DNA from: an uncultured Clostridia bacterium
Lineage (GTDB): Bacteria; Bacillota; Clostridia; TANB77; SIG350
Direction: 5' to 3'
Assembly: GCA_944393615.1 (NCBI GenBank)
Contig: CALYAQ010000134.1
Coordinates: 1 to 42,883, forward strand
DNA: 42,883 nt
The translations under genes and the position numbers were made by a program. The notes under the pieces are model-generated. The model made no database searches. It saw nothing but the letters and a program-made list of their open reading frames with translations, and was not told where the DNA came from. Each line of letters opens with the position of its first letter. The stretch's first letter is position 1. Positions 1,069 to 42,883 of the stretch are shown piece after piece.

Positions 1069-2454
1069 TTAATTATAGAAAGCTCTATACCCTTTATATG
1101 CCATATATACATCATGTTTACTTGTCACTTCATAAGGTGCATGCATTGATAATACAGGAACTCCACAATCTATTACATCCGCTCCTTTATTAGCTATAAT
1201 ATATGCAATAGTTCCGCCACCGCCTTCATCTACTTTTCCTAGTTCTCCTGATTGATATGCAACTTCATTTTTATCAAATATATTTCTTACATACGCAACA
1301 TATTCAGCCGTAGCCTCACTTGAACCTGATTTTCCTCTAGCACCAGTATATTTTAGCAAGCACATACCATTACCCAAAAATGAACTATTCTTTGGATCCG
1401 ATACAGAAGGATATGTTGGATCAAACGCTGCATCAACATCTGCTGACAACATTTTAGTATTTAGATATATTTTATTTAATATATTAGGTACATATTGATT
1501 TAATTTAACAGCAAGCTCCACCAACATATAGTCCAATACGTTTGATTCCATACCAGTATTACCCATACTACCTATTTCTTCCTTATCCATTAACATACAT
1601 ACACAAGTTTTATTCGGTACACCTTCAATGTCTATCATTGCTTTAGCCGATGTAAAGGCACATACCCTATCATCTTGACCATAACCTGCTATCATACTTC
1701 TATCAAAGCCTAATTCTCTTGCCTCAAAATGAGGTACTAATTCTAATTCAGAACTCAAAAAGTCATGTTCAGTTATTCCATATTTTTCATTTAGTATTTT
1801 TAATATATTGTATTTTACTTTTTCCTTATCAGTATCATCAGAAGGATAATTACCAATAAGCAAGTTTAAGTCTTCTCCTTCTATACCTTCAGATAATTTT
1901 TTCTCCATTTGTTTTCTTGCTAAATGTGGCAATAGGTCTGTAATAGTAAAAATAGGGTCAGAAGGGTCATTTCCTACACTAACGTGCACTTTTTCTCCAT
2001 TCGATTTAATTATTACACCTCTAATTTCTAACGGAATTGTTACCCATTGATATTTCTTAATACCACCATAATAGTGAGTTTTTAGTAATGCAAAACCATT
2101 ATCTTCATATAGAGGGTTTGGCTTTAAATCTAATCTCGGAGAATCAATATGTGAACCAATTAAGTTTATTCCATTTACTAATGGTTCATTTCCTATTACA
2201 GCCATTAATATGTTTTTATTTCGATTAATATAGTAAACCTTATCTCCTGGTTTTAAATTTTGCATTTCGCATATACATTTATACCCTGAATTTTCTATAA
2301 CATTCTCCCAGTATTGTACACATTCTCTTTCAGTTTTACAATTATTCAAAAAATCAATATATTCATGTGCAACTTGTTCAAGCTTATTGATTTGTTCCTG
2401 ATTTAGTTTTAACCATCCATTTTCTTTTTTTAATGTTAATTTTTCTTTATTCAT
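1069..2454 (-). CDS. apeA: M18-family aminopeptidase (aminopeptidase 1 type)
   Basis: GSHIDSPRLDLKPNP and DKEEIGS metallopeptidase M18 motifs. Start moved to ATG 2454 (MNKEK...) because AAGGAG at 2462-2467 sits 7 nt upstream. Confidence 0.85.
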   Translation of the reverse strand: MNKEKLTLKKENGWLKLNQEQINKLEQVAHEYIDFLNNCKTERECVQYWENVIENSGYKCICEMQNLKPGDKVYYINRNKNILMAVIGNEPLVNGINLIGSHIDSPRLDLKPNPLYEDNGFALLKTHYYGGIKKYQWVTIPLEIRGVIIKSNGEKVHVSVGNDPSDPIFTITDLLPHLARKQMEKKLSEGIEGEDLNLLIGNYPSDDTDKEKVKYNILKILNEKYGITEHDFLSSELELVPHFEARELGFDRSMIAGYGQDDRVCAFTSAKAMIDIEGVPNKTCVCMLMDKEEIGSMGNTGMESNVLDYMLVELAVKLNQYVPNILNKIYLNTKMLSADVDAAFDPTYPSVSDPKNSSFLGNGMCLLKYTGARGKSGSSEATAEYVAYVRNIFDKNEVAYQSGELGKVDEGGGGTIAYIIANKGADVIDCGVPVLSMHAPYEVTSKHDVYMAYKGYRAFYN

Positions 2455-2570
2455 ATAAACACTCCTTTTCAATATATATTATATGCAAATTTATCTTTTA
2501 AAAACCTAAATTATATATTAAATTATATATTATATTTATCATTTTTACAATCTATATTTTTATTTTTGAG

Positions 2571-24300: not shown

Positions 24301-25050
24301 ATTTAAATACAACTATTGTCAAGGTTCAACACCAATTTGTTAACGTCATTTCTAAACGTAACCATATTTAAATACAACTATTGTCAAGGTTCAACGCGAA
24401 TATGCAAACCTTTGCTAATACTACTTTACAATTTAAATACAACTATTGTCAAGGTTCAACGTAAATAAAGAATTGATAAAAATATTAGGACTAGAATTTA
24501 AATACAACTATTGTCAAGGTTCAACATACACAAAAAGAAATAATAAAAACGGCACATCACGATTTAAATACAACTATTGTCAAGGTTCAACCATATATTT
24601 TATGGCACAGCAAACAGGAAATTAAGATTTAAATACAACTATTGTCAAGGTTCAACTTTTTTATTAGCCATTAATACCACTCTCCTTTAAATATTTAAAT
24701 ACAACTATTGTCAAGGTTCAACTTTTTATCCCCTCAACACCTAGAAACACAACGGTTATTTAAATACAACTATTGTCAAGGTTCAACTCTACTGGGTTTG
24801 ATTTAGTACCGGCACTTAATCAATTTAAATACAACTATTGTCAAGGTTCAACCTACAACCTCTTTGCCTTTTTTTAAGGTGTCACTAAATTTAAATACAA
24901 CTATTGTCAAGGTTCAACATAATTCCTCGTATCTCCTTTTACCTTCTAATGTTATTTAAATACAACTATTGTCAAGGTTCAACTTATGCTAGGAATAGCA
25001 ATATTCAGGCAAGAACCAGTATTTAAATACAACTATTGTCAAGGTTCAAC
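18380..25050 (-). CRISPR. Type I-B CRISPR array, 102 repeats / 101 spacers
   Basis: 30-bp repeat ATTTAAATACAACTATTGTCAAGGTTCAAC on plus, GTTGAACCTTGACAATAGTTGTATTTAAAT on minus (clostridial I-B style, ending ATTTAAAT). Spacers are 34-38 nt and all repeat starts were located by hand. Variant repeats at 18447-18476 (1 substitution), 20094-20123 (3 substitutions) and 21016-21045 (1 substitution). Confidence 0.97.
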
Positions 25051-30702: not shown

Positions 30703-31857
30703 TCATTTTATCCCTATAATCTTCTTTACCATTCTTTTAGCAAAATTAACACCTCTTAATATAATGCTATTTTTCTTTACGTATTTATTAACCAACTCCT
30801 CAAACTCATACTTACCTAAACCATTAAAAAAGCTTTCTCTATTGCTATTCGATTTTACACTTTGTGTCATTGAAGGATTCATTGAAATAGCTTTTTTAAA
30901 ATCAACTTTTTCATACAATATATTTTCTTTAATTTCTTCAAACACATTATTTCCTTTATTAGAATTTACCATTACTAACGATACTCCTTTATCATCGTTA
31001 AAGTTTGGTAATATACTATTTATTCCCCAAAAATCAGCTAACGTTATATCAGAAACTCTATTCTCTTTTTTAAAACTGCAATTATAACACGATTCCCTTA
31101 AAGATATATTTTTCAAAAACGCTCTCATATATAAATCTGTACTATGATATTTCTTGTACTTATATTCTTTATTTGTTAACACCAAATTAAATCTAGCCCA
31201 ACCATTATCTTTATTTCTAAAATTAATATCAATCTTACCTATATCTTCTTTACCTAATCTATATTTAAGATACTCTTTCCATACTTTTGGTGAAGGTACT
31301 CCATGACATATAATATCTTGAGTATATAAATTTTGATATTCTTTTCTTAAAAAGCTATATAACCCTTCAACTTGGCAAGGCGTACCTGTAAACAATACTA
31401 GCCTTCCATTTTCTAAATATTCTTTTGCTTTTTTATATGTATCTCCAATTTTACTTTGAACATATTTAGACCCTCTTAATTTATATAAATCTTCAACTTT
31501 ATCTATCTCAATATGTTCAACCAAATTATCATTATTAAAACTTGCTCCAAAAACTATACCACCATTCTTGATTACATATGTAGCAATTAAAGTAAATATC
31601 CCACCAGAAGAACTATCTAATCTTACAGTTTCATTTTTATTATAACAAGCATAGGCAATAGGCTTGTTATTATTTTCTTTAGTATTTAAAATAGGACATA
31701 CTTTTTCACAAATTTTACAGTCTATACACTTATTTTTATCAACTACTGGCACTAAAAAACCTTTTGTATCTTCTTGCATAGTAATAGCATTTTTAGGACA
31801 TGCATTATAGCAAGCATGACAACCACAACACTTTGATTTTTCTATAATCTCAATCAT
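30703..31857 (-). CDS. FrhB-family (coenzyme F420 hydrogenase/dehydrogenase beta-like) protein with N-terminal 2x[4Fe-4S] ferredoxin domain
   Basis: CCGCHACYNACP and CIDCKICEKVCP cluster motifs, then FrhB-like SSSGG..GTPCQ region. Confidence 0.75.
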   Translation of the reverse strand: MIEIIEKSKCCGCHACYNACPKNAITMQEDTKGFLVPVVDKNKCIDCKICEKVCPILNTKENNNKPIAYACYNKNETVRLDSSSGGIFTLIATYVIKNGGIVFGASFNNDNLVEHIEIDKVEDLYKLRGSKYVQSKIGDTYKKAKEYLENGRLVLFTGTPCQVEGLYSFLRKEYQNLYTQDIICHGVPSPKVWKEYLKYRLGKEDIGKIDINFRNKDNGWARFNLVLTNKEYKYKKYHSTDLYMRAFLKNISLRESCYNCSFKKENRVSDITLADFWGINSILPNFNDDKGVSLVMVNSNKGNNVFEEIKENILYEKVDFKKAISMNPSMTQSVKSNSNRESFFNGLGKYEFEELVNKYVKKNSIILRGVNFAKRMVKKIIGIK

Positions 31858-31858
31858 A

Positions 31859-33394
31859 TTAACCCCTTCTTAACTTCATAATAACTTTATCTTTCATATC
31901 ATTAACCAAATTCTTTTCATACGAATTCATTCCCCAATACCACATAAATATTGCATATACAATAACATATAATACTATTTGTAAACAAAATGCTAATATA
32001 CTATCAATGGTAAAATATTCTCTCATAACAAATCCTAATATAAATACTACTAAAACAGGAATTGTCATTTCAATTATTTCTTTCCAAAACTTTAAAATAT
32101 CAATATGAATTTTCTTATGGTAGTATATATTTAAAATTAATCCTTGACCTAATATAAGTGATATTGCTGTACCTACCGCACACCCTATTACACCATATAT
32201 ATTAACCAATATTATTGAAAGAATAACATTACATATTGCTATGCCTAAAAACACTAACGTTCTAAACTTGTGTAAATTTTTAGCTTGTAAAATACTAATT
32301 CCTATATTTTGTATTAAAGGTAATGTTACAGGTAACATTAAAATACATGCTATATAATACGACAAATCATATTCTGCTCCAAACAAGAATAATATAAATT
32401 GATGACCAAATAAAACAAAACCCGTTATTATCAAAGCCATTATTATATATTGTAATCTTCCTGTTTTAATAAATACGTCCGTAAACTCTTCATTACTTGC
32501 ATTTCGTGCTACCATTTTGCTTATTCTTGGTAATAATATATTACTAATTGCAGTGGAAAATGCAATGTACATAGTATTAAACTGTGCTGAAACGCTATAT
32601 ATGGCAACAGCAACTGTACCAAGAGTTGCACCTAATATAAAATGGTCAACAGTCCAATTTATCTTATCTATTATAACTGATAAAAATATAAAAAACGAAA
32701 ATATACTTATTTCTTTTAGCAATGGTATATCAAAACCTTTTAAGGCAAATTTTATATTCAATTTCTTTATACAATAAAAAGTATTTAATAATGAACAAAA
32801 AATATTTACTAATGTTAATATTATAACTAAAGTTATTGATTTGTATCCAAACAAAAGAAAAGGTATCATAATTATTGGTGCAAGTATTATTCTTAATATG
32901 TTTACACACTTTGCAAATACAAATTTTTCGTATGCAGTAATTATTGAATTAAATATACTAAATGGAAATGTGATTAATAAATTAAATGATAATATTCCCA
33001 TAAGTATTTTAGCTTTGCTTAATTCTTCAACTGTTAAAGTTGCTCCAAACAAATTTTCAACATTACACATCAATATTAATCCACATATACCTGCTATAAC
33101 TCCTATAACCGTATAAATTGTTAAAAACATACCATGTAATTTACGTTCTTTTTCTTCGTCATTATTTTGTCTATACTTTGCCGTATATATAACAATTGCA
33201 TTAGCAAATCCAAAATCTAATATTGTAAGATATGACATAGTTGTATATACTAATGAATATAATCCATATTCAGATTGTCCTAACGAATATGTTAAAAATG
33301 GTAAATATGCTACACCAATAATCATATTCAAAGCAACTATTATATACGATAATATAACTCCTACTTTTACTTCATTTACTTTCAAATTATTCAC
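31859..33394 (-). CDS. Wzx-type oligosaccharide flippase (MOP superfamily)
   Basis: 511 aa, about 12-14 TM helices, typical polysaccharide-biosynthesis-protein layout. GTG start. Confidence 0.8.
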   Translation of the reverse strand: MNNLKVNEVKVGVILSYIIVALNMIIGVAYLPFLTYSLGQSEYGLYSLVYTTMSYLTILDFGFANAIVIYTAKYRQNNDEEKERKLHGMFLTIYTVIGVIAGICGLILMCNVENLFGATLTVEELSKAKILMGILSFNLLITFPFSIFNSIITAYEKFVFAKCVNILRIILAPIIMIPFLLFGYKSITLVIILTLVNIFCSLLNTFYCIKKLNIKFALKGFDIPLLKEISIFSFFIFLSVIIDKINWTVDHFILGATLGTVAVAIYSVSAQFNTMYIAFSTAISNILLPRISKMVARNASNEEFTDVFIKTGRLQYIIMALIITGFVLFGHQFILFLFGAEYDLSYYIACILMLPVTLPLIQNIGISILQAKNLHKFRTLVFLGIAICNVILSIILVNIYGVIGCAVGTAISLILGQGLILNIYYHKKIHIDILKFWKEIIEMTIPVLVVFILGFVMREYFTIDSILAFCLQIVLYVIVYAIFMWYWGMNSYEKNLVNDMKDKVIMKLRRG

Positions 33395-34505
33395 CTATTC
33401 CTAATGAATTCTTTAAAAAATTCATTGCTTTTTCTCTTTCTTCTTTTAATATATTATCTGTATTACTAAAATCTATATTAAACTCCACTTCTTTATCATA
33501 ACTTGTTAATTTTCTATTTTCCAAATTAAATTTTTTCAATATAGTATCTAGCCTACTACTCATGGATTTTCCTTGTTGCTCTCTATCTAATACATAAAAA
33601 GGTCGTTTATATAATATTGAAAAAACTGTTCCGTGAAAAGAATCTGTAAATACCATTTCTGCATTTTTTATATACCACAAAAATTCACTTGGTCCGGCGA
33701 TATAATATTTATCAATACGTATTTGTCCTAAATCAACAACTTCAAAATTATTCTTTTTCGCTATATCGTATATATATTTTTTTCTAGCTCTAGAATATTT
33801 GCCTAAAAAATATGTTAATATGTATTTTTTTTCAGGGATATATTCAGGATTTTTAGAAACTTTGTCCCACTCTTTATCAGTTAACATCATAGTTGGGTCA
33901 ACAACTAATACAGCTTCTTTTCCACTTATTTCTTTTACTAATTCTACAGATCTTTCTTCTCTTACAGATATAGCTGATATATTTTCAAATCCCTTTTTAT
34001 ATATATCAATATATTCTTTTGGTATATCATTTACTCCTATACTTGCTGAAAACGATATATTTTTTTCTTTAGGAGCAAACTCTAAAAAATTTATTTCTTT
34101 TATAGTTGGTCTTTGTGGATTCCAAACTTGGTCACTTCCTATTGAAAAAAAATCATACTTATCATTTAGTATATTGGTATTAAAGTTATTTGTAATTATG
34201 TTTTCACTATAATTAATATATTTTTCAAATTCTAAAAAGTTTCCTCTTCTTTTTATTAAAACTTTATTCTTTATATGTTTTGATATTATTAAGTTTAGTT
34301 TTCTTTTCAAAACTTGATAAACCTTTGTTATTGAAAATAATCTTAAATAATATTTTATGCTTCTATTTTCATAATCATATGTATTATTTTTTATAGTTTC
34401 AACTTTTAAATTCATTTTTTCGTAACTATACTGAACCGCATAGTTTTGTATTCTATTTTCATAATTATTAATATAATTTAAGTTTATTATTCCTATATTT
34501 TTCAT
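33387..34505 (-). CDS. Polysaccharide pyruvyl transferase
   Basis: IGSDQVWNP motif and C-terminal TDSFHGTVFSI motif of the PS_pyruv_trans family. ATG 34505 preferred (AAGGAGA RBS). Confidence 0.8.
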   Translation of the reverse strand: MKNIGIINLNYINNYENRIQNYAVQYSYEKMNLKVETIKNNTYDYENRSIKYYLRLFSITKVYQVLKRKLNLIISKHIKNKVLIKRRGNFLEFEKYINYSENIITNNFNTNILNDKYDFFSIGSDQVWNPQRPTIKEINFLEFAPKEKNISFSASIGVNDIPKEYIDIYKKGFENISAISVREERSVELVKEISGKEAVLVVDPTMMLTDKEWDKVSKNPEYIPEKKYILTYFLGKYSRARKKYIYDIAKKNNFEVVDLGQIRIDKYYIAGPSEFLWYIKNAEMVFTDSFHGTVFSILYKRPFYVLDREQQGKSMSSRLDTILKKFNLENRKLTSYDKEVEFNIDFSNTDNILKEEREKAMNFLKNSLGIGE

Positions 34506-34509
34506 CAAA

Positions 34510-35469
34510 TTATCTCCTTACTTTTCGTTTATGTACAAAACTACATATTATCAAAAGTATACTACTAGGAATTATTTTTAATAAACTTACTAATATACTT
34601 TTTTTAATTCCTAAACCTTTAACTTTTAAATCTCTGTTTTCTTTTTTCATTTTCTTAATTATATCTAATTTTTCTTTATATGTATAGGTACAATCTTTAT
34701 GAGATAAATCCATAATACAAGAAAATATATTTTTATACCTTATATAATTTAAAGCATACATTATATCTTCTTGATTATATTTTCTTGTTATTTCTTTAGC
34801 TTTATCATTTACATACATAAGTTTGTTATATTTATCTTTCTTATATTTCTTTGTTAAAGAATTACTATTATCTTGATTATAGCAATAATAATTATATGAA
34901 TTTAGTACAACTTCTTTTACATATTGTATATAGGTAATATTAAAAAGCTTATCTTCTCCTATTTCTGTATTAGTATCAAACAATATATTATTATCTTTGA
35001 TAATTTTATTGGAATAAATCTTACTACAAGGTGAATTTATTAACTCTGTATATATTAATTTTGCTATAACATCTTTTACTTTATATGTATTACTTTCAAA
35101 TAAATTTTCTACTATTCTAAAAATATACATATCTTTATCCACATTTAAATTCATTACTTGGTTAATTTTATTTAAACTATTTTCTAAAATCCAATCATCT
35201 GAATCCATAAACATAATATACTTACCATTTGCATTTTGTATCCCCATATTTCTAGCTGAACTAACTCCGCCATTCTCTTTATGAAATATTTTTACACAAG
35301 CATTATTTTTTGCAATCTCTTCACATATTTTATATGTATTATCCTTTGAACCGTCATCAATAACTAGTATTTCATAATCATAGTATTTTTGTTTCAATAT
35401 ACTATTAATGCATTTTTCAATATATTTTTCTGCATTATATGCAGGTATTATTATAGATAAATTGTACAT
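34510..35469 (-). CDS. Family 2 glycosyltransferase
   Basis: LSIIIPAYNAEKYIEKCINSILKQ..YEILVIDDGSKDNT and FMDSDD (DxD). Confidence 0.85.
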   Translation of the reverse strand: MYNLSIIIPAYNAEKYIEKCINSILKQKYYDYEILVIDDGSKDNTYKICEEIAKNNACVKIFHKENGGVSSARNMGIQNANGKYIMFMDSDDWILENSLNKINQVMNLNVDKDMYIFRIVENLFESNTYKVKDVIAKLIYTELINSPCSKIYSNKIIKDNNILFDTNTEIGEDKLFNITYIQYVKEVVLNSYNYYCYNQDNSNSLTKKYKKDKYNKLMYVNDKAKEITRKYNQEDIMYALNYIRYKNIFSCIMDLSHKDCTYTYKEKLDIIKKMKKENRDLKVKGLGIKKSILVSLLKIIPSSILLIICSFVHKRKVRR

Positions 35470-35470
35470 A

Positions 35471-36550
35471 TTAACTCCTTTCTATAAATGTTTGATACGG
35501 TATAACATCACTCATTCCAAATACATATACTTCTAAAATAAATAAAAGTATTATAAACATAAACATTAAAATAGTAATACATTCTTTTTCTTTTTTTTCT
35601 TTTATTACTTTAGGTATTGCAGGTAACAAATATATCAATACAATTGTAAAGTATGAACTTATACGAGCTAATGCCACTACTTTTAATGATAACATGCTTA
35701 ATATTACTCCTATTAAGTATAGAAAGAAAAACTTTTCATTATCTTTATCATAATGTATTAATCTCTTAATATATATACTTAAAACGAATAGTATTAAAAT
35801 ATTTAAAACAATATGGCCTATTCCTCCTATAGAACCAGTTGTATATACTGTATATTTTTCAAACAGTTCAATATTGCTCATAATGTTTAGAAACGCATCT
35901 ATATTAAGTGCTAATACTGTTACCGCAACTAGCGATACTAACTTTATTAAACTATTATCATTTTTAATATTTAATATGAAATAAAATGGTAATAATACTA
36001 TTGCTGTTTTATGAAAACACATTGCAAATAAAGTGAATAATAAAAATTTAACAAAACGTTTATTTATTATATATTTTAAAGCAAAAAACATTATTACTAC
36101 AGCCAAGCACTGTCTCATTCCATTAAAGCTTGAAGTAAAAAACATAAATAAATATACAAGCATACCTAGACTAATAGATATTTTTTCTTTTTTATTAAGT
36201 ATTCCTAAAAATGCAAATATTACTGTTAATATAGCAAAAATAACAAACACCACTTGTTCTTCATTAAAACACATTGCTATTTTTGCTATAATTCCAAAAC
36301 CGATTTCATAATCACTTTGCAATAGCTGGTTTATTGACATGGAATTGATATTATCAATGCTATAATAATAAGTTAAAAAATCTGTTCCGACATTATACCT
36401 AATGCCAGATATTACTATTGGTATTAATAAAGCTAATACAAATAATAGTATTTTTAATTTTTCACTTATTTTTTTATCATTTTTTTCTGCCATATATATA
36501 ATAATTATACATATTAGAAATGATATTATATAAAAAACTACACTCCCCAT
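35471..36550 (-). CDS. EpsG-family membrane protein (Wzy-like polymerase)
   Basis: 359 aa, about 10 TM helices. RYNVGTDFLTYY motif typical of the EpsG family. Confidence 0.7.
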   Translation of the reverse strand: MGSVVFYIISFLICIIIIYMAEKNDKKISEKLKILLFVLALLIPIVISGIRYNVGTDFLTYYYSIDNINSMSINQLLQSDYEIGFGIIAKIAMCFNEEQVVFVIFAILTVIFAFLGILNKKEKISISLGMLVYLFMFFTSSFNGMRQCLAVVIMFFALKYIINKRFVKFLLFTLFAMCFHKTAIVLLPFYFILNIKNDNSLIKLVSLVAVTVLALNIDAFLNIMSNIELFEKYTVYTTGSIGGIGHIVLNILILFVLSIYIKRLIHYDKDNEKFFFLYLIGVILSMLSLKVVALARISSYFTIVLIYLLPAIPKVIKEKKEKECITILMFMFIILLFILEVYVFGMSDVIPYQTFIERS

Positions 36551-36560
36551 TTTATCCTCA

Positions 36561-37673
36561 CTATTGATTATATACTTCTATCATTTCTTTTTTTACATTA
36601 TCTAATAAATAATCATGTACTAATGTTTTTGAAATAATAGAAAAATTATCTTTTATATCTTTATGTAGTATTAAATTAGTAATGCTATCATAAAATTTTT
36701 GTTTATCATTTGTATTTACTATATATCCATTTTCATTATTTTTCACTAACTCTCTATGACCTCTATTATCAGTCGCAACAATAGGTAAACTCATATACAT
36801 AGCTTCCATTATATTTACTGGTAATCCTTCTCTAAAACTTGATGCTACATATATATCAGTTATTGATAACAACTGTCCTATGTCTTGTCTTTTACCTAAC
36901 AATTTTATATTGTTTTCTAATCCTTTTTCTTTTATTTGTTGTTCGTAATATTCCTTTAATTCACCTGTTCCTATTAATAGTAAACAAACATTAATATTAC
37001 TTTTAACTAATTGTTCTACTGTATCTATCAACAGCATTTGATTTTTATTTTTATTTAACTCTGCTACATAAGACAATACGGTTGAATCTTTTGGTATTTG
37101 TAAATCCTCTTTATATTTTTGTTTCTCTTCTTCACTTAATTGTACATCTAATCTTTCAGTTTTACAACCCACTCCATGTATATGTCTAATATCTTTTATC
37201 TTAAATTTCTTTTTTGCAAATTCATAATCTTCTTTATTTATTGTAATTAAGCAATCCGTATATCTTGACATCATTTTTTCTATTGGGTAATATATTAACC
37301 AATTAAGTTTTGGTGCTCCTTTATAGAAATGAAAGCCATGTGCTGTATATATTACTTTAGTATTATATTTCTTTCTTGCTTTTCTTGCTGCTAATCTAGT
37401 TAATACTCCACCTACTGGTGTATGACAATGTATTATTTCATATTCATTTTCATTTATTATTTTCTTTAATTGATTATATACTTTTAAATTTTGTAGTTTA
37501 AATGGAAATCTTGCAAAATCCAAATCAAAATGTTTATCACAATACGGTATTTCTGCATTTCCTTTACATGCTACATGAACTTCATATCCTTGTTCTTTAA
37601 AATATTGTAAATATGGTATATGAAATGTTTGTATATGATAAGTAACTGTTGCTACAAATAATACTTTTTTCAT
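36561..37673 (-). CDS. Family 4 (GT-B) glycosyltransferase
   Basis: C-terminal SFREGLPVNIMEAM (E-x7-E) motif, 370 aa. Confidence 0.8.
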   Translation of the reverse strand: MKKVLFVATVTYHIQTFHIPYLQYFKEQGYEVHVACKGNAEIPYCDKHFDLDFARFPFKLQNLKVYNQLKKIINENEYEIIHCHTPVGGVLTRLAARKARKKYNTKVIYTAHGFHFYKGAPKLNWLIYYPIEKMMSRYTDCLITINKEDYEFAKKKFKIKDIRHIHGVGCKTERLDVQLSEEEKQKYKEDLQIPKDSTVLSYVAELNKNKNQMLLIDTVEQLVKSNINVCLLLIGTGELKEYYEQQIKEKGLENNIKLLGKRQDIGQLLSITDIYVASSFREGLPVNIMEAMYMSLPIVATDNRGHRELVKNNENGYIVNTNDKQKFYDSITNLILHKDIKDNFSIISKTLVHDYLLDNVKKEMIEVYNQ

Positions 37674-38298
37674 TTACTGCTCCATTCTTTTTGCAGGTAT
37701 ACCTATATATGTACCTACTTGTTTTATATCTTTTACCACTACCGCTCCTGCTCCTATTACACAACTATTACATATTTCAATATTGTTCTTTACAACCGTT
37801 CCTGCTCCTATATGTGTTTTTTCTCCTATTGTTACAGTACCGCATAAAGTTACATTGGGCGATATATGAATAAAGTTTTGTAATATATTATCATGTTCAA
37901 TAATTGCTCCTGTGTTTATTATACAGTGCTTACCTATTTTAGCACCTGAATTTATGACTGCATTTGCCATAACAGTAGTACCTTTTTCAATATATACATC
38001 TATTCCAATAACTGCAGTAGGGTGTATAGCTGTATAATATTCCAAATCATATTCATTACTTATTTTTTTTCTTGTGTTATTATTGCCTATCGCAATTATA
38101 AAAGAAAGTTCTTTGTTTTGTTTTAATTCATTACACTTTTCTATTTTTCCTATTACTTTTATATCATTAATTATATTAGTCCCGTATAGGTACATTATCA
38201 TCTAGAAAGCCCACTACATTATCATTTGATTTAATTATAATATCTGCTACAACTTTAGAATGTCCTCCGGCACCAATTATTACTACATTACTAGACAT
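37674..38298 (-). pseudogene. PglD/EpsM/NeuD-type hexapeptide acetyltransferase carrying a frameshift
   Basis: The N-terminal Rossmann part [40 protein letters not shown] (ATG 38298, stop 38178-38176) is in a different frame from the left-handed beta-helix part (track ORF 37674-38201; 38298-38201=97). Confidence 0.7.
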
Positions 38299-38914
38299 TT
38301 AATTGCTCCTTTCTTTCACATTCAAACTTACTCATAGTAGCATTACCTTCCTGTGATATACCTTCTCTTTTAAATACTTTCCCTACTGTTGCTAATATAA
38401 TTTTTACATCTAGAATAAATGACACCTCATTTGTATATGTAACATCATATTCAAATCTTTTTTCCCAACTTGTTGCATTTCTTCCATTTATTTGTGCTAA
38501 ACCTGTTAATCCAGGTCTTACATCATGTCTATGTTTTTCATTTTCATTATAGTATGGTAAATATTCAACTAATAATGGTCTAGGACCCACAATAGACATA
38601 TCGCCTTTTAATATATTTATAAGTTCTGGTAATTCATCTAAACTTGTACTTCTAAGAAATTTACCAAATTTAGTAAGTCTATCTTTATCAGGTAAAAGAT
38701 TTCCTTGCTCATCTTTTTTATCTGTCATTGTCCTAAATTTATAAATCGTAAATATTTTTTCATCTTTCCCCGGTCTTTGTTGCTTAAATATAACTGGGCT
38801 ACCAAGTTTTATTCTTACCAATATTGCTGTTATTAACATTATTGGAGATAATACAATAACCCCTATAAGACTTAATGTAAAATCAAGCACTCTTTTTATG
38901 TATTTTTTATACAT
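38291..38914 (-). CDS. Undecaprenyl-phosphate sugar phosphotransferase, small PglC/EpsL type (initiating transferase)
   Basis: 207 aa, one N-terminal TM helix. [26 protein letters not shown]-like [21 protein letters not shown] motifs. Confidence 0.85.
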
Positions 38915-38917
38915 ATA

Positions 38918-40054
38918 TTACACTTCCTTAAATAAATTTCGTATTATTTGTATAATTTCTTTTTGTGTATCTTCTGTCATTTTAGTATCACTAGGTAGAC
39001 ATACTCCTTGCTCAAATAATTCTTGAGATGTTGAACCTTGTTGTAACTCTGATATAAAATCATATTGTTCAAATACAGGTTGCATATGCATTGGTTTCCA
39101 TACTGGTCTTGATTCAATGTTTTCCTTTTCTAATGCCTCTATAATATCTAAAGGTTGAATTTTTGAATCTTTATCTATATATATTGCAGATAGCCAATGA
39201 TTTGGTCTTGCATTTTCTTCGTATGGTTGCATTGTAATTTGAGGTATATCTTTAAATCCTTCTTTATATAACTCATATATTTGCGTTTTTTTATTTATTC
39301 TTTGTTCCAAAACTTTTAACTGACCTCTACCAATACCTGCTAAAACATTACTTAATCTATAGTTATATCCAACCTCATTATGTTGATAATGTCTTGCTGG
39401 CTCTCTTGCTTGAGTTACCCAAAAATGTACTTTATCTATTCTTTCTTTACTATCTGAAACAAGCATACCACCACCACTAGTAGTTATAATTTTGTTTCCG
39501 TTAAATGAATAGGCACCATAATCTCCGAATGTTCCTGTATGTTTTCCGTTATATGTAGCACCTAAACTCTCTGCCGCATCTTCTATAATTGGTGTATTAT
39601 GCTCTTTACATATTTTTTCTATCTCATCTATTTTAGCAGGAGTACCATATAAATGTACTATCATAACCGCTTTCACATTCAGATATTTTTCAAATGCTTT
39701 TTCTAACGCTTTAGGGCTCATATTCCAAGTATCTTTTTCTGAATCTATAAATACTGGGGTCGCACCTTCATACATTATTGGATTGGCAGTCGCTGAAAAA
39801 GTTAAACTTTGACAAAACACTATATCTCCCTTTTGTATATCAACAGCTTTTAACGCCATATGTAAAGCTGCTGTTCCTGCACTTAATGCACATGCATTTT
39901 GTGCTTTAGTATATGCACAAATTTCTTCTTCAAATTTATTTACATTTTCCCCTAAAGGAGCAATCCAATTTGTATCAAATGCCTCCTTTATATATTGCAT
40001 TTCATACCCTTCATCAGACATATGTGGTGAAGCTAAAAAAACTTTTTCCCTCAT
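38918..40054 (-). CDS. DegT/DnrJ/EryC1/StrS-family sugar aminotransferase (PglE/EpsN type)
   Basis: 378 aa. YSFNGNKIITTSGGGML (PLP-Lys region) and NYRLSNVLAGIGRGQL motifs. Confidence 0.85.
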   Translation of the reverse strand: MREKVFLASPHMSDEGYEMQYIKEAFDTNWIAPLGENVNKFEEEICAYTKAQNACALSAGTAALHMALKAVDIQKGDIVFCQSLTFSATANPIMYEGATPVFIDSEKDTWNMSPKALEKAFEKYLNVKAVMIVHLYGTPAKIDEIEKICKEHNTPIIEDAAESLGATYNGKHTGTFGDYGAYSFNGNKIITTSGGGMLVSDSKERIDKVHFWVTQAREPARHYQHNEVGYNYRLSNVLAGIGRGQLKVLEQRINKKTQIYELYKEGFKDIPQITMQPYEENARPNHWLSAIYIDKDSKIQPLDIIEALEKENIESRPVWKPMHMQPVFEQYDFISELQQGSTSQELFEQGVCLPSDTKMTEDTQKEIIQIIRNLFKEV

Positions 40055-40530
40055 TTTTCTTCCTTCTTTCTATTCTTTAATATATATATAATTAACATTG
40101 CAATAATTATACCAAGTAACGCACCTGCTGAATCAATACATACATCTGTAAACTGCATTGCTCTGCCAGGTATAAAATATTGATGTAATTCATCTGATAT
40201 TGCATAAGTTGTTGCTACAACTTGAGATAATATAACCTTTGTTTTTGTTGCGTATTTAGTTGTACTAAATAAAAGATATATTAACATTCCACCTATAAAA
40301 TATATTGTAAAATGTGCCAACTTTCTAATTGGTAATTGTAATTGAGATATAAGTTGTTGCTTTTGATTGTCATTCATGTTATCTTCAACAGGCAATACAT
40401 TTAATATTACCTCAATTACCTTTTGACTTGTCCCACTAGATTGTACCGCTTCTTGATGTGAAAAACTAAAAACAATAATCATCCACAATATTACTAGGAT
40501 ACAACTTAATACCCTTATTTTTTTATTCAT
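40051..40530 (-). CDS. VanZ-like membrane protein
   Basis: RKLAHFTIYFIGG and DELHQYFIPGR..D..D..G motifs. Start moved to ATG 40530 (MNKKIRV). Confidence 0.7.
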   Translation of the reverse strand: MNKKIRVLSCILVILWMIIVFSFSHQEAVQSSGTSQKVIEVILNVLPVEDNMNDNQKQQLISQLQLPIRKLAHFTIYFIGGMLIYLLFSTTKYATKTKVILSQVVATTYAISDELHQYFIPGRAMQFTDVCIDSAGALLGIIIAMLIIYILKNRKKEEK

Positions 40531-40552
40531 AAATATATATTCCTTCTTCCTA

Positions 40553-42400
40553 TTACAATATGTTTTTATCAATAAATGTAGGTACAATTTCCTTCATCAT
40601 TTGTCTTACATCATGTCTTGTACAATTATCATTTTCTATTAATCTAGCTAATTTTTGTAACTTTTCATTTATTTCTTTTTCATCATGTTGTTCAATTTTT
40701 GATATCATTATCTTATCATTTGCAGTTTTAGTAAGTCCCTCTTCAGCAATAAGCAATTCTTCATATAGCTTTTCGCCTTTTCTTAGTCCCGTAATCTTTA
40801 TAGGTATATTTTTTCCCGAAAATTTAATTAATGTTTTTGCTAAATCATATATTTTTACAGGCTCCCCCATATCAAGTACAAATATTTCTCCACCTTTTGC
40901 ATATGTTCCAGCTTGTAAAATAAGTCCTACCGCTTCAGGTATTAGCATAAAATATCTCGTAATCTCCTTATGTGTAACAGTAACAGGTCCTCCCTCTTGT
41001 ATTTGTTTTTTGAATAACGGTATTACAGAACCATTACTCCCTAAAACATTTCCAAATCTAACAGCCACATAATTAGTTTTGCTATTAGAATTTTTTGCCT
41101 GCACAATCATTTCACATATTCTTTTCGTTGCCCCCATTATGCTAGTTGGATTTACTGCTTTATCTGTAGATATAAGTACAAAACGGTCAACTCCATATTC
41201 ATTTGAACACGCAACAACGTTATATGTTCCAAACACATTATTCTTTATAGCCTCCATAGGACTATTTTCCATTAAAGGCACATGCTTGTGTGCTGCAGCA
41301 TGAAATACTATTTGAGGTCTATATTCTTTAAAAATTTCATTTAATCTTTTCTTATCCCTAATACTAGCTATAACCGTTTTTATTATATCTTCTCCATATA
41401 CTGGCTGTAATTCTCTTTCAACTTCATATAACGAATTTTCATATATATCTAACATAATTAATTTTTCAGGAGAAAAAGTAGCAATCTGCCTACAAAGCTC
41501 TGAACCAATTGAGCCACCTGCTCCAGTAACTAACACTATCTTTCCCTTTAAAAAATCACTTATTTCATTATTATTCAGCTTTATACTTTCTCTACCCAAC
41601 AAATCTTCCAACTCAACATCTCTAAAGCTGTCATCTATATCTTTACCATGTATAATCTTCTCTATTGGTAACATTACCTTTACTTTAGCATTTGTATCAT
41701 TACAAATATTTAGAACTTCATTTTTTTCTTTCTCTTTTATATTTTGAATAGAAAAAAGTATTAAATTAACATTCTCTTTTTCACATATACGCTTTATATC
41801 TAACCTATTTCCAATTACTTCAACACCATACATTAAGCATCTTCTTTTTTCAGTATCATCATCTATAATTCCAACTATGTTATATTCATCCCCCATATTA
41901 ACAGTAATATTTCTAATAATTTGTGATGTAGCTTGACCTGCACCAATTATTAATATATTCTTTTTTTCTTTTTTACCTTTACTATTAATATAGTTTACCA
42001 AACATCTAAACCCTCCACGTACTGCTACTGTTTCTACTGCAATAAATATACCCGCCAATATATTAGTCTGCATACTTAATGTAGCAATTGGTAAAATCGT
42101 CTCTATCATAGTTATTAACCACGCTGATATAGCACAAGTACAAGCTAGCACAATATATTCTTGTATACTAGAATATATTGTTATATTCCTATATATCCTA
42201 AAAACATTCCAAAATATTATATATATTATAATTGCTAAAAGCACTGTACTAAAAAAGGCACTAGATGCTATACCATATTCTTGTGGTATAAACAAATATG
42301 TAAACATATATGCTAATATTATTGCTACAATATCTATTATAACTAAACTAATTCTCTTTACTATTTTAGGTAATTTACTAACAACCCCTATAAAATTCAC
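40553..42400 (-). CDS. Membrane-anchored UDP-HexNAc 4,6-dehydratase (CapD/EpsC/PglF family)
   Basis: N-terminal TM helices, two Rossmann motifs (IIGAGQA; VTGAGGSIGSEL), STDKAVNPTSIMGATKR. Start moved to GTG 42400 (RBS AAGGAGAGG 42411-42419) because the track ATG 42466 lies in the loop of a terminator hairpin. Confidence 0.85.
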   Translation of the reverse strand: MNFIGVVSKLPKIVKRISLVIIDIVAIILAYMFTYLFIPQEYGIASSAFFSTVLLAIIIYIIFWNVFRIYRNITIYSSIQEYIVLACTCAISAWLITMIETILPIATLSMQTNILAGIFIAVETVAVRGGFRCLVNYINSKGKKEKKNILIIGAGQATSQIIRNITVNMGDEYNIVGIIDDDTEKRRCLMYGVEVIGNRLDIKRICEKENVNLILFSIQNIKEKEKNEVLNICNDTNAKVKVMLPIEKIIHGKDIDDSFRDVELEDLLGRESIKLNNNEISDFLKGKIVLVTGAGGSIGSELCRQIATFSPEKLIMLDIYENSLYEVERELQPVYGEDIIKTVIASIRDKKRLNEIFKEYRPQIVFHAAAHKHVPLMENSPMEAIKNNVFGTYNVVACSNEYGVDRFVLISTDKAVNPTSIMGATKRICEMIVQAKNSNSKTNYVAVRFGNVLGSNGSVIPLFKKQIQEGGPVTVTHKEITRYFMLIPEAVGLILQAGTYAKGGEIFVLDMGEPVKIYDLAKTLIKFSGKNIPIKITGLRKGEKLYEELLIAEEGLTKTANDKIMISKIEQHDEKEINEKLQKLARLIENDNCTRHDVRQMMKEIVPTFIDKNIL

Positions 42401-42424
42401 TTGCGACCTCTCCTTATTATATAT

Positions 42425-42487
42425 ACAATCAAAAACAAAGCAAAAAACAACCAAAACATTATACATATTTATATAATGTTTTTGGTT
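42425..42487 (-). terminator. Intrinsic terminator/attenuator in the eps operon leader
   Basis: Minus strand AACCAAAAACATTATA-aaatatg-TATAATGTTTTGGTT (15 bp, one bulged base) then GTTTTTTGCTTTGTTTTTG. Ends about 10 nt before the capD-like RBS. Confidence 0.7.
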
Positions 42488-42605
42488 ATTCTATATAACA
42501 AATAAAAATCGCATATTGTTGTTTATAAAAGCTATTTTTAAAATCATCCAATTGTGTGTGTGTGTGTGTGTGTACAGCCTCAAGGCTTATAGCATTTCTA
42601 TACAT
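42486..42605 (-). CDS. Candidate 39-aa leader ORF containing the (CA)10 tract
   Basis: RBS GGGGGAG (42618-42612) 6 nt before ATG 42605. Translation MYRNAISLEAVHTHTHTQLDDFKNSFYKQQYAIFICYIE. The TAA at 42488-42486 overlaps the first bases of the terminator stem. Confidence 0.3.
   Translation of the reverse strand: MYRNAISLEAVHTHTHTQLDDFKNSFYKQQYAIFICYIE
42553..42572. repeat. (TG)10/(CA)10 dinucleotide microsatellite
   Basis: Ten perfect TG units read directly from the sequence. Unusual for this AT-rich context. Confidence 0.95.
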
Positions 42606-42643
42606 TTTTTACTCCCCCATATCTCTAAAAATTCTTCTTTGAT

Positions 42644-42672
42644 ATATTATCATATATTTATTTGTTTTTCAA
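42644..42672 (-). promoter_or_regulatory. Putative sigma-A promoter of the eps leader/operon
   Basis: Minus strand TTGAAA (42672-42667), 17 nt, TAATAT (42649-42644). Confidence 0.4.
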
Positions 42673-42820
42673 GGAATATCGACAAAAAATACAAATTTAC
42701 CAAAAATTACTCAAAGCTTACGCGTCTAAAGGTTAGAAAACTTTTTCTTTTTTCATAGGTCAACTGAAAAAGTAAATGCAATTCTGTAAAGTAAATGCAA
42801 GTTGTAAGAAAAAATGCAAT

Positions 42821-42860
42821 AAAAAAAGCAATATTTTAACAAAAAGTATTGCTTTTTTTT
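42821..42860. terminator. Bidirectional-looking rho-independent terminator
   Basis: AAAGCAATA (42825-42833) and TATTGCTTT (42847-42855), 13-nt loop, A-run upstream and T8 downstream. Confidence 0.5.
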
Positions 42861-42883
42861 GAAAATAGTGTAAAATTAAAGTA

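What the first reader, a model, noticed from the sequence alone, without database searches (positions are those of the whole stretch)
42425..42672. eps operon leader: upstream ORF carrying a (CA)10 microsatellite whose stop codon overlaps an intrinsic terminator
On the minus strand the order is as follows. A candidate promoter (TTGAAA-17-TAATAT, 42672-42644) comes first. Next is a strong RBS GGGGGAG, exceptional in this AT-rich DNA, 6 nt before ATG 42605. Then comes a 39-codon ORF (MYRNAISLEAVHTHTHTQLDD...CYIE) in which (CA)10 encodes the His-Thr run. Its TAA (42488-42486) supplies the first two bases of a 15-bp terminator stem followed by a T-tract. Only about 10 nt later come the RBS and GTG start of the first eps gene, and there is no room for a credible promoter after the terminator. 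A ribosome reaching this stop would occlude the 5' arm and favour read-through. By my translation, losing one CA unit gives ..HTHTHTIG-TGA, stopping about 60 nt upstream and letting the terminator form. Gaining one unit gives a frame that ends at a TAG 3 nt before the TAA. Slipped-strand changes in the dinucleotide tract could therefore switch capsule/EPS expression through translation-coupled attenuation.
Basis: partly seen in the sequence, partly recalled or inferred. Interest (0 to 1): 0.65.

Follow-up and report, generated by a model that had tools for sequence, protein, structure and literature searches.

The report
Repeat-switched leader before polysaccharide operon
A slippery run of ten CA pairs in a tiny gene ahead of a sugar-coat operon probably acts as a random on/off switch by setting whether ribosomes run into a transcription stop signal; this trick was proven once in Streptococcus gallolyticus, and this uncultured gut bacterium carries about 40 copies of it.

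Summary
They hold a TG-extended promoter-like site, the GGGGGAG Shine-Dalgarno (SD) sequence, a 39-codon upstream ORF (uORF) containing (CA)10, and a TAA that overlaps the first bases of a strong hairpin followed by a T tract. The SD and GTG (42400-42398) of a CapD/PglF-type gene follow.

It is one of about 41 paralogous cassettes in this 1.6-Mb chicken-gut genome assembled from a metagenome (MAG). The same cassette occurs in 62 of 401 genomes of the order.

In 70 of 74 loci that have a terminator, a frame stays open from the tract to the hairpin (37 expected by shuffling). Usually exactly one frame does so. Tract length ranges from 4 to 36 units and differs between copies with 97-99% identical flanks.

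Downstream genes are typical contingency genes:
- pilin-like surface proteins
- glycosyltransferases
- HsdS
- phage tail fibres

Here the target is an 11-gene Wzx/Wzy polysaccharide operon.

The mechanism has an experimental precedent, the S. gallolyticus pil1/pil3 switch (Danne 2014). This is therefore a new variant of a known kind.

Specific to this copy, n=10 and n=11 read ON and n=9 reads OFF. A predicted outer helix also sequesters the eps SD.

Repeat variation at this particular locus could not be measured.

The parts
42644..42672 (-). Promoter-like site: TTGAAA, 17-nt spacer, TG-extended -10 TAATAT. The predicted transcription start is near 42637.
   Evidence: 9 of 12 matches, TG present. 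Paralogous cassettes carry TTGACA-17-TACAAT at the equivalent place. A terminator-like hairpin of the upstream unit at 42821-42859 means a promoter is needed here.
42612..42618 (-). Shine-Dalgarno sequence GGGGGAG of the leader ORF, 6 nt before the ATG.
   Evidence: All paralogues have AAGGAG or GGGAG at the same spacing.
42486..42605 (-). Leader ORF (uORF) of 39 codons plus TAA. The N-terminal part MYRNAISLEAV(HT)3 is the conserved cassette.
   Evidence: About 41 paralogues in the genome.
42553..42572 (-). (CA)10 tract, the proposed slipped-strand switch. It is preceded by the conserved flank AAGCCTTGAGGCTGTA.
   Evidence: Tract length runs from 4 to 36 units across homologous loci. Ten of 17 pairs with at least 90% identical flanks differ in length.
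42544..42546 (-). TGA stop used when n=9 (n divisible by 3). This is the short, predicted OFF frame.
   Evidence: MYRNAISLEAVHTHTHTIG*, with the stop 56 nt before the core stem.
42491..42493 (-). TAG stop used when n=11. It lies at the foot of the hairpin, so this frame is predicted ON.
   Evidence: 38 codons, stop ending at +115 against a stem start at +113.
42430..42492 (-). Intrinsic-terminator-like hairpin with core arms 42487-42472 and 42463-42449, followed by a T tract at 42448-42430. The TAA of the n=10 frame supplies the first two stem bases.
   Evidence: dG -19.7, z -5.3. (whole element dG -36.4, z -6.0).
42402..42513 (-). Predicted outer helix in which 42513-42493 (inside the 3' part of the leader ORF) pairs with 42423-42402. 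It sequesters the eps SD GGAGAGG (42413-42407).
   Evidence: pairing probability 0.87-1.0 for most SD bases. (0.99 against 0.22 for shuffled flanks, 0 of 30 as high). It is not general in the family (7 of 43).
40553..42400 (-). First regulated gene: a CapD/PglF-type polysaccharide biosynthesis protein (Polysacc_synt_2) with GTG start 42400-42398.
   Evidence: E 1e-122. (58% identical orthologue in G031).
30703..40553 (-). Rest of the tightly packed operon: VanZ, DegT aminotransferase, Bac_transf, PglD-like acetyltransferase, GT4, EpsG (Wzy-like), GT2, pyruvyl transferase, Wzx flippase and an FrhB/Fer4 protein.

Best explanation
The leader is a phase-variation switch of the leader-peptide attenuator type, driven by a simple sequence repeat.

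**How it would work**
- Transcription starts about 32 nt before a short ORF that has a strong SD.
- Replication slippage in the (CA)n tract changes the reading frame after codon 11.
- With n=10 or n=11, ribosomes translate up to the foot of the terminator hairpin (TAA 42488-42486 or TAG 42493-42491).
- There they occupy its 5' arm, and the 5' strand of an outer helix that sequesters the eps SD. RNA polymerase therefore reads through and the 11-gene Wzx/Wzy polysaccharide operon is expressed.
- With n=9 (or any n divisible by 3), ribosomes stop at TGA 42546-42544, 56 nt before the stem. The hairpin then forms and most transcripts end.

**What is shown**
- The anatomy.
- The frame logic.
- The stability of the structure.
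- Membership of a family of about 41 copies in this genome, spread across the order.
- Conservation of a frame open up to the terminator.
- Hypervariable tract length in that family.

**What is inferred**
- Slippage at this particular locus.
- Coupling of translation to termination.
- The ON and OFF assignments.
For: - **Anatomy and frames:**
- **Family:** 40-41 cassettes in the own genome share the SD, the ATG, about 10 codons and the flank TTGRGGCTSTA(CA)n.
- **Distribution:** the motif is in 62 of 401 genomes of the order and 19 of 50 genera, with 0 control hits. It is in more than 112 loci of gut Clostridia MAGs.
- **Open frame:** a frame reaches the hairpin in 70 of 74 loci (exactly one frame in 62). 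Shuffling predicts 37.4. Dereplicated clusters give 46 of 49 against 28.9, P<5e-6. The stop lies inside the hairpin for 57 of 80 reaching frames.
- **An insertion test:** copy C84 carries an insertion of about 100 nt yet keeps an 82-codon frame that ends at the same ..KIKLE stop in the terminator arm.
- **Hypervariability:** n ranges from 4 to 36. Pairs with 97-99% identical flanks differ, for example 10 vs 11, 9 vs 13 and 10 vs 13.
- **No independent promoter:** there are 36 nt from T tract to GTG here. Twenty-eight of 59 loci have fewer than 55 nt, and a promoter-like motif occurs in only 12 of 59.
- **Targets:** downstream genes are classic contingency genes, namely pilin-like surface proteins, GT2/GT4/GT87, HsdS, DUF285/LRR proteins and phage tail fibres.
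- **Ancestry:** relatives carry the same cassette fused in frame to the pilin-like protein, M..SLEAV(HT)n..L.NKKGITLVAL. This is ordinary in-ORF phase variation and shows that the tract acts as a frame switch.
- **Precedent:** in S. gallolyticus pil1/pil3, a leader stop 4 bp before or within the hairpin gives high expression, and a stop at least 28-49 bp upstream gives low expression.
- **SD-sequestering helix in this copy:**
Against: - No read-level count of CA units at this locus was possible. Only k=31 contigs were available. Two samples support n=10, and three stop matching at the tract end in a way that only suggests n>=11.
- No usable RNA data were found.
- In this genome 29 of 41 copies have exactly n=10 and none has 11 or 12. 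A freely drifting tract would not give that. It may reflect recent amplification or gene conversion, selection, or the assembly consensus.
- The eps association is unique to this genome. The CapD orthologue in G031 has no CA tract upstream.
- Whether ribosomes keep pace with RNA polymerase in this lineage is unknown. In Bacillus subtilis they often do not (general knowledge).
- Both ON stops lie at the very foot of the stem and not inside it.
Confidence: 0.7

Rival explanations
1. Relic cassette. A copy of the pilin-gene leader landed upstream of a horizontally acquired eps operon and is no longer a working switch. The operon is expressed constitutively through a leaky terminator, and the CA tract is only a passenger.
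For: The eps-cassette link is found only in this genome. The sequence after the tract has diverged from the family consensus. A multicopy element, probably mobile, lies immediately upstream.
Against: The tract is perfect and full-length. Two of three frames stay open for 27-28 codons to the exact foot of the hairpin, while the third stops after 2 codons. The hairpin plus SD-sequestering helix is far more stable than shuffles (z -6.0). No alternative promoter exists.
Confidence: 0.13
2. Independent small-protein gene. The mini-ORF with its promoter and terminator is a self-contained, phase-variable small-protein gene, and a stop codon inside a terminator is simply normal gene architecture. The downstream gene is expressed separately.
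For: The unit runs from promoter to terminator. Stops overlapping terminators are common in compact AT-rich genomes. Twelve of 59 loci have a promoter-like motif after the terminator.
Against: Beyond the N-terminal cassette the long-frame peptides are not conserved in sequence or length between lineages; only their openness is conserved. The cassette always lies directly upstream of, and in the same orientation as, a surface or glycan gene. Most spacers are too short for a promoter, including the 36 nt here. Fused versions show that the leader is an N-terminal extension of the regulated protein.
Confidence: 0.06
3. Amino-acid-sensing or factor-dependent attenuator. The His-Thr codon run stalls ribosomes when His- or Thr-tRNA is scarce, as in the his and thr leaders, or an RNA-binding protein recognises the CA-rich RNA. 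Control would then be physiological rather than stochastic.
For: Runs of regulatory codons in leader peptides are the hallmark of classical attenuators (general knowledge). The flank AAGCCTTGAGGCTGTA is conserved across families for no explained reason.
Against: No alternative antiterminator pairing with the terminator arm was predicted. The downstream genes have nothing to do with His or Thr supply. Sister cassettes use (GA)n, encoding Glu-Arg, or G9 in the same design. The three-frame stop pattern and hypervariable n are what a frame switch needs, not a stalling sensor. No Rfam family matched.
Confidence: 0.04

Closest known systems
Streptococcus gallolyticus pil1 and pil3 leader-peptide phase-variation attenuator (Danne et al. 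2014, PLoS Pathog, PMC3894217)
   Same: [quoted passage not shown] Repeat gain or loss moves the leader stop. A stop far upstream gives low expression. A stop just before or inside the hairpin gives high expression, because the ribosome blocks the stem-loop. In both systems two of three frames are ON, and both control surface structures.
   Different: The repeat is a dinucleotide (CA)10, not the pentanucleotide (GCAGA)22. The leader is a conserved portable cassette present in about 41 copies per genome and across an order of uncultured Clostridia, not two loci of one species. Related copies exist as in-frame fusions and as stop/start-coupled versions. The target here is a Wzx/Wzy polysaccharide operon. 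This copy has an added predicted SD-sequestering helix. There is no experimental proof here.
In-ORF slipped-strand phase variation, for example Neisseria opa CTCTT repeats in the signal-peptide region, Helicobacter pylori CT repeats and Campylobacter poly-G in capsule genes (general knowledge)
   Same: A hypermutable repeat near the 5' end sets the frame, the switching is stochastic and heritable, and it acts on multigene families of surface proteins, glycosyltransferases and restriction-modification specificity genes. The fused relatives of this cassette work in exactly this way.
   Different: In the window the repeat is not in the regulated gene. Its frame is read out through a terminator and an SD helix, so a whole 11-gene operon is switched at the transcriptional level.
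Classical ribosome-mediated attenuation (E. coli trp, his and thr leaders; general knowledge)
   Same: The position of the ribosome on a leader peptide decides whether a terminator hairpin forms.
   Different: No alternative antiterminator hairpin was predicted, and the system senses no amino acid. The input is a heritable DNA length change, not tRNA charging.
Haemophilus influenzae intergenic SSR acting through 5'-UTR structure and RNase III (NAR 2025, PMC12721329), and invertible-DNA switches read out by Rho termination such as E. coli fim and C. difficile flgB (review PMC12360218)
   Same: A DNA-level phase switch is converted into an RNA-level or termination-level output.
   Different: Those systems use no leader-peptide frame. 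The termination cases depend on Rho and on DNA inversion, not on an intrinsic terminator and repeat slippage.

Membership tests
SSR leader-peptide attenuator (S. gallolyticus pil1/pil3 type) | A simple sequence repeat lies inside a short leader ORF that has its own SD and ATG, at the 5' end of the operon transcript. | tested here: met
   GGGGGAG, 6 nt, ATG, with (CA)10 in codons 12-18. The promoter-like site lies 38 nt upstream.
SSR leader-peptide attenuator (S. gallolyticus pil1/pil3 type) | A premature intrinsic terminator lies between the leader ORF and the first structural gene, with no promoter after it. | tested here: met
   Hairpin with T tract, dG -19.7, z -5.3. There are 36 nt to the GTG, with no promoter-like site. 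This is prediction only.
SSR leader-peptide attenuator (S. gallolyticus pil1/pil3 type) | Changes in repeat number move the leader stop between far upstream and at or within the terminator. | tested here: met
   with n=9 the stop is 56 nt before the stem, and with n=10 and n=11 it is at the stem foot. The same pattern holds in 70 of 74 family loci.
SSR leader-peptide attenuator (S. gallolyticus pil1/pil3 type) | Repeat number varies between cells or strains at the locus. | tested here: inconclusive
   At this locus only k=31 contigs were available. X1 and X4 support n=10. X2, X3 and X5 end at the tract with unmatched letters. In the family as a whole the feature is clearly met.
SSR leader-peptide attenuator (S. 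gallolyticus pil1/pil3 type) | Anti-termination depends on translation (start-codon, stop and stem mutants; chloramphenicol uncoupling). | not testable with these tools
   This needs reporter or transcript assays, and the organism is uncultured.
(CA)n leader cassette of uncultured gut Clostridia (this scan's family; no published name found) | SD-ATG, about 10 codons ending in [ST][LV][EG]A[VL], the DNA flank TTGRGGCTSTA, then (CA)n read as (His-Thr)n. | tested here: met
   The window has ..AISLEAV with TTGAGGCTGTA(CA)10.
(CA)n leader cassette of uncultured gut Clostridia (this scan's family; no published name found) | A three-frame stop pattern: one (rarely two) long frame reaches the output element, and the others stop within a few codons. 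| tested here: met
   In the window copy two frames are long and one is short.
Amino-acid-sensing leader-peptide attenuator (trp/his/thr type) | Mutually exclusive antiterminator and terminator structures, with downstream genes in the pathway of the sensed amino acid. | tested here: not met
   No competing antiterminator appears in the folds. The downstream genes make a polysaccharide.
Known structured cis-regulatory RNAs (Rfam 15) | A match to a curated covariance model. | tested here: not met
   the best hits are far below gathering scores, and the hit with the lowest E-value lies on the upstream terminator hairpin.

The most novel reading that the evidence does not exclude
This genome may run the densest repertoire of leader-peptide SSR switches yet seen. 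It has at least 41 (CA)n cassettes, plus (GA)n and poly-G sister designs, in 1.6 Mb, or about one per 38 kb.

Each cassette would independently gate one pilin-like surface protein, one phage tail-fibre-like gene or, here, a whole capsule-type operon. A single clone could then display a combinatorial surface.

The cassette would be a portable frame sensor that evolution has wired to three outputs:
- in-frame fusion to the regulated protein
- terminator occlusion
- stop/start coupling

In the eps copy it would form a double lock, in which one translating ribosome opens both the terminator and the SD-sequestering helix.

The invariant flank AAGCCTTGAGGCTGTA would have a function of its own, such as promoting slippage or pausing.
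Probability: 0.4. Interest if true: 0.75.

Novelty: new variant of a known kind. Interest (0 to 1): 0.58.

Why it matters
Phase variation in gut commensals is known mostly from invertible promoters (Bacteroides, C. difficile). SSR switches are known mostly from Gram-negative pathogens, and the leader-peptide-plus-terminator version is known from one streptococcal species.

Here the same logic appears as a mobile, conserved module. It is used dozens of times per genome in uncultured, genome-reduced gut Clostridia, apparently the group GTDB calls TANB77 (my inference from the names of the matching MAGs). Pilin-like proteins of that group have been linked to immunotherapy response (PMC11680825), and that paper does not mention phase variation.

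If the switches work, three consequences follow:
- Metagenomic presence of these surface-protein and capsule genes would not predict their expression.
- Assemblies would break at these loci, as this MAG does.
- Strain-level CA counts would become a readable record of which surface structures are on.

The eps copy shows the module capturing a whole polysaccharide operon.

Tried and rejected
- **Rfam:** no family matched.
- **Consensus terminator scan:** it misses the hairpin because the stem has too few G-C pairs. Folding was used instead.
- **CA counts at the eps locus:** all runs are held as k=31 contigs that break at the tract. A +TG variant contig exists in X1, X5 and X8 but cannot be assigned to a locus. 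Unitigs in X2, X3 and X5 stop matching at 42573 with 2-3 letters that the tool does not show, so this is only suggestive.
- **RNA evidence:** three runs of unknown type at depth 3-4 gave nothing usable.
- **Metagenome scan with an eps-specific flank:** 0 hits.
- **Conserved eps-cassette link:** the only CapD orthologue, in G031, has no CA tract upstream.
- **SD sequestration as a general family feature:** rejected (7 of 43 loci, Wilcoxon P=0.22). It holds for this copy and for one subfamily.
- **RNA hairpin or peptide constraint as the reason for the conserved flank (and inspection):** no convincing covariation was seen. Part of the apparent conservation comes from the search pattern itself. 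This is left unexplained.
- **Pilin family membership:** N_methyl/TIGR02532 did not hit the pilin-like N-termini, so they are called "pilin-like" only by motif and by the literature.
- **His/Thr-sensing attenuator:** rejected; see the rival explanations.

Full report
**1. The observation**

- TTGAAA lies at 42672-42667, followed by a 17-nt spacer and TAATAT at 42649-42644. TG two bases upstream makes this an extended -10, and one search lists the site with TG=yes.
- The Shine-Dalgarno (SD) sequence GGGGGAG (42618-42612) lies 6 nt before ATG 42605.
- A 39-codon ORF (MYRNAISLEAVHTHTHTQLDD...CYIE) ends at TAA 42488-42486.
- (CA)10 occupies 42572-42553.
- The TAA overlaps the first two bases of a 15-bp, one-bulge stem (42487-42472 pairing with 42463-42449), which is followed by a T-rich tract (42448-42430). 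Folding gives dG -19.7 kcal/mol, z -5.3, with no shuffle as stable.

The SD GGAGAGG (42413-42407) and GTG (42400-42398) of a CapD/PglF-type gene follow (Polysacc_synt_2, E 1e-122). No acceptable promoter lies in between.

One search confirms the frame predictions. With n=9 the ORF stops at TGA 42546-42544 (..HTHTHTIG*). With n=11 it stops at TAG 42493-42491.

There are two minor corrections. The start codon is at 42400, and the SD lies about 16 nt after the T tract rather than about 10.

**2. The leader is not unique**

Searching the window's own genome with the leader gave an unexpected result. The genome is a 1.6-Mb, 28% G+C, 160-contig assembly from chicken gut metagenomes (MAG). The segment from the SD through the tract is repeated about 40 times.

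All 41 copies share five features:
- an AAGGAG-type SD
- an ATG
- about ten codons ending in [ST][LV][EG]A[VL]
- the DNA flank TTGRGGCTSTA
- a (CA)n tract

Forty-one of the 44 (CA)n tracts of at least 5 units in the genome are of this kind. Most copies lie within a few hundred bases of contig ends. The family is therefore a main cause of the fragmented assembly.

Where enough sequence is present, the cassette is followed by a terminator hairpin. After that come the SD and start of a 350-720-aa protein. Its N-terminus is MKKGISLVALVITIVVLVILTG, and it carries Ig-like domains (Big_12). I call these proteins pilin-like surface proteins.

The window copy is the only one placed before a polysaccharide operon. 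The operon has 11 tightly packed genes:
- CapD/PglF
- VanZ
- DegT
- Bac_transf
- a PglD-like acetyltransferase
- GT4
- EpsG (Wzy-like)
- GT2
- a pyruvyl transferase
- a Wzx flippase
- an FrhB/Fer4 protein

**3. The frame logic is conserved**

In nearly every copy exactly one of the three frames after the tract is long. This frame has 44-59 codons. It has 82 codons in copy C84, which carries an insertion of about 100 nt.

The long frame ends in one of two ways. It ends either in the 5' arm of the terminator (..KKINRKEKIKLE*) or just past the T tract (..NMLSWFFAV*). The other two frames stop 11 and 22-28 nt after the tract.

I extended the test to 74 loci with a detectable terminator, drawn from the own genome and from loci in other genomes. 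A frame stays open to within 12 nt of the stem in 70 of them, and exactly one frame does so in 62. Shuffling the intervening sequence predicts 37.4. After dereplication the result is 46 of 49 against 28.9, P<5e-6. The stop of the long frame lies inside the hairpin for 57 of 80 reaching frames.

The distance from T tract to the downstream start codon has a median of 56 nt. It is below 55 nt in 28 of 59 loci. A promoter-like motif lies in that spacer in only 12 of 59. The window copy has 36 nt and no such motif. Downstream genes therefore depend on read-through.

**4. The tract is hypervariable**

The motif occurs in more than 112 loci of uncultured gut Clostridia MAGs from humans, rabbits and roe deer, including Clostridium sp. 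CAG:389. It is present in 62 of 401 genomes of the order, spread over 19 of 50 genera. The reversed-pattern control gave no hits. Copy number is highest in the window's own genome (40); the next highest are 31, 19 and 16.

Across these loci n ranges from 4 to 36 with a broad distribution. Among pairs whose 100-nt flanks are at least 90% identical, 10 of 17 differ in n:

| Flank identity | n in the two copies |
|---|---|
| 99% | 10 vs 11 |
| 98% | 9 vs 13 |
| 97% | 10 vs 13 |

Tract length therefore changes much faster than point substitutions accumulate, which is the signature of a slipped-strand contingency locus.

One caveat applies. Within this genome 29 of 41 copies have exactly n=10 and none has 11 or 12. 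This points to recent amplification or gene conversion, to selection, or to an effect of the assembly consensus.

In the consensus states, only 2 of 23 evaluable cassettes in this genome are in the long frame, and one of them is the eps leader. In other genomes the figure is 11 of 45.

**5. Origin and range of outputs**

In many relatives the same cassette is fused in frame to the pilin-like protein: M..SLEAV(HT)n..L.NKKGITLVALV... That is ordinary in-ORF phase variation.

The long frames of the uORF type keep the ancestral ..LL.NKK.. motif. The attenuator form therefore appears to have arisen by insertion of a terminator, an SD and a start codon between the leader and the mature protein.

A third form has the leader frame running across the SD and start of a small phage tail-fibre-like gene, or ending in an ATGA overlap with it.

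Besides pilin-like proteins, the targets include:
- HsdS
- GT87, GT4 and GT2 glycosyltransferases
- DUF285/LRR surface proteins
- tail-fibre modules

This is the classic repertoire of contingency genes.

The CapD orthologue in G031 has no cassette. The eps wiring is therefore specific to this genome.

**6. Mechanism and precedent**

The literature search found a direct experimental precedent. In Streptococcus gallolyticus, pil1 has 22 GCAGA repeats inside a 38-aa leader peptide, followed by a premature terminator of dG -18.7 kcal/mol. pil3 is built the same way.

Out-of-frame repeat numbers lengthen the leader, so that its stop lies 4 bp before or within the hairpin. The ribosome then blocks the stem-loop and pilus genes are transcribed. 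Leaders that stop at least 28-49 bp upstream give low expression. Start-codon, three-stop and terminator mutants, together with chloramphenicol treatment, support the model.

The window copy has the same geometry. The n=10 and n=11 stops lie at the foot of the stem and the n=9 stop lies 56 nt upstream. As in pil1, two of three frames are predicted ON.

I found no paper describing this (CA)n cassette. I also found no description of phase variation in these Clostridia. The one paper on their pilin-like proteins does not mention it.

**7. An extra feature of this copy**

The read-through RNA is predicted to form a long two-tier helix. Below the terminator, 42513-42493 (inside the 3' part of the leader ORF) pairs with 42423-42402. 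This covers the eps SD with pairing probabilities of 0.87-1.0 for most of its bases. The whole element has dG -36.4 kcal/mol and z -6.0.

Shuffling the 5' flank lowers SD pairing from 0.99 to 0.22, and none of 30 shuffles reached the observed value. The helix is not a general family feature: it is seen in 7 of 43 loci, P=0.22. If it is real, the same ribosome would open both the terminator and the SD.

**8. What could not be done**

All public runs holding this DNA are kept as k=31 contigs, which break at the tract. Locus-specific unitigs support n=10 in two samples. In three others they stop matching at the end of the tract, with a few letters that the tool does not show. This is suggestive only.

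RNA runs were uninformative. A metagenome scan with an eps-specific flank found nothing. Rfam has no matching family.

**9. Earlier notes of this scan**

I consulted these notes only after the analyses above. They describe the same cassette family in other genomes and name the same precedent. They agree with my reading but are not independent evidence.

This window adds four things:
- the wiring of the cassette to a polysaccharide operon
- the highest copy number among the 401 genomes sampled from the order
- the statistics on frame openness
- the SD-sequestering helix

**10. Verdict**

The element is a new variant, and a new target, of a known kind of switch. It belongs to a large and apparently unpublished cassette family. 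Confidence in the mechanism is 0.7. The main gap is direct evidence for repeat heterogeneity and for translation-dependent read-through at this locus.

Noticed in passing
window 42757-42883 (minus strand; contig end): A repeat of about 127 nt has 15 copies at 91-100% identity. Nearly all lie at contig ends and are followed by unrelated DNA, so this is probably the end of a mobile or otherwise multicopy element. It carries a terminator-like hairpin (42821-42859). Those motifs are part of this repeat and are not specific to eps.
   Followed up: partly
own genome C92:9644-9675: A (GA)16 tract lies inside a leader ORF, MNRNLETLDTL(ER)n. This is the same cassette design with a different dinucleotide.
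   Followed up: no
own genome C80:2058-2066: A G9 tract lies in a short ORF (MKQDKAVQTNVLNGGGTLLTNSNEVFLVLKYLKTHIKVCVFC) that runs into a terminator hairpin, AAAACACATA..TATGTGTTTTTT. This looks like a homopolymer version of the same switch logic.
   Followed up: no
own genome C93, around 21126-21700: A (CA)14 cassette has an n+1 frame that ends in a TGA overlapping the ATG (ATGA) of a 157-aa gene. The gene sits in a prophage-like block with holin-like and amidase genes downstream. Related loci (L030, L109) place the cassette before tail-fibre C-terminal modules (phrog_2712).
   Followed up: partly
own genome C2, C78, C84, C91, C106, C120:905: In one subfamily of cassettes an insert of about 120 nt lies between the terminator and the gene. 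It carries a promoter-like TAGACA..TGATATATT, which would bypass the switch. C84 also has an insertion of about 100 nt inside the leader that still preserves an 82-codon frame to the terminator.
   Followed up: partly
own genome C101 (about 12029-10000, minus strand) and C120 ORF at +1641..2546: Pilin-like surface proteins, or their downstream ORFs, end in a Hint/intein-like module (CFVAGTKVLTENG...LVHN).
   Followed up: no
window 18512-24656: A large CRISPR array with about 100 copies of the repeat ATTTAAATACAACTATTGTCAAGGTTCAAC (TRF).
   Followed up: no
window 42604-42690 in runs X2, X3, X5: Strains in three other gut samples share the eps gene and the leader up to the tract at 100% identity. 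Nothing in them matches the uORF start and promoter region, so the upstream half of the leader has been replaced in those strains.
   Followed up: partly
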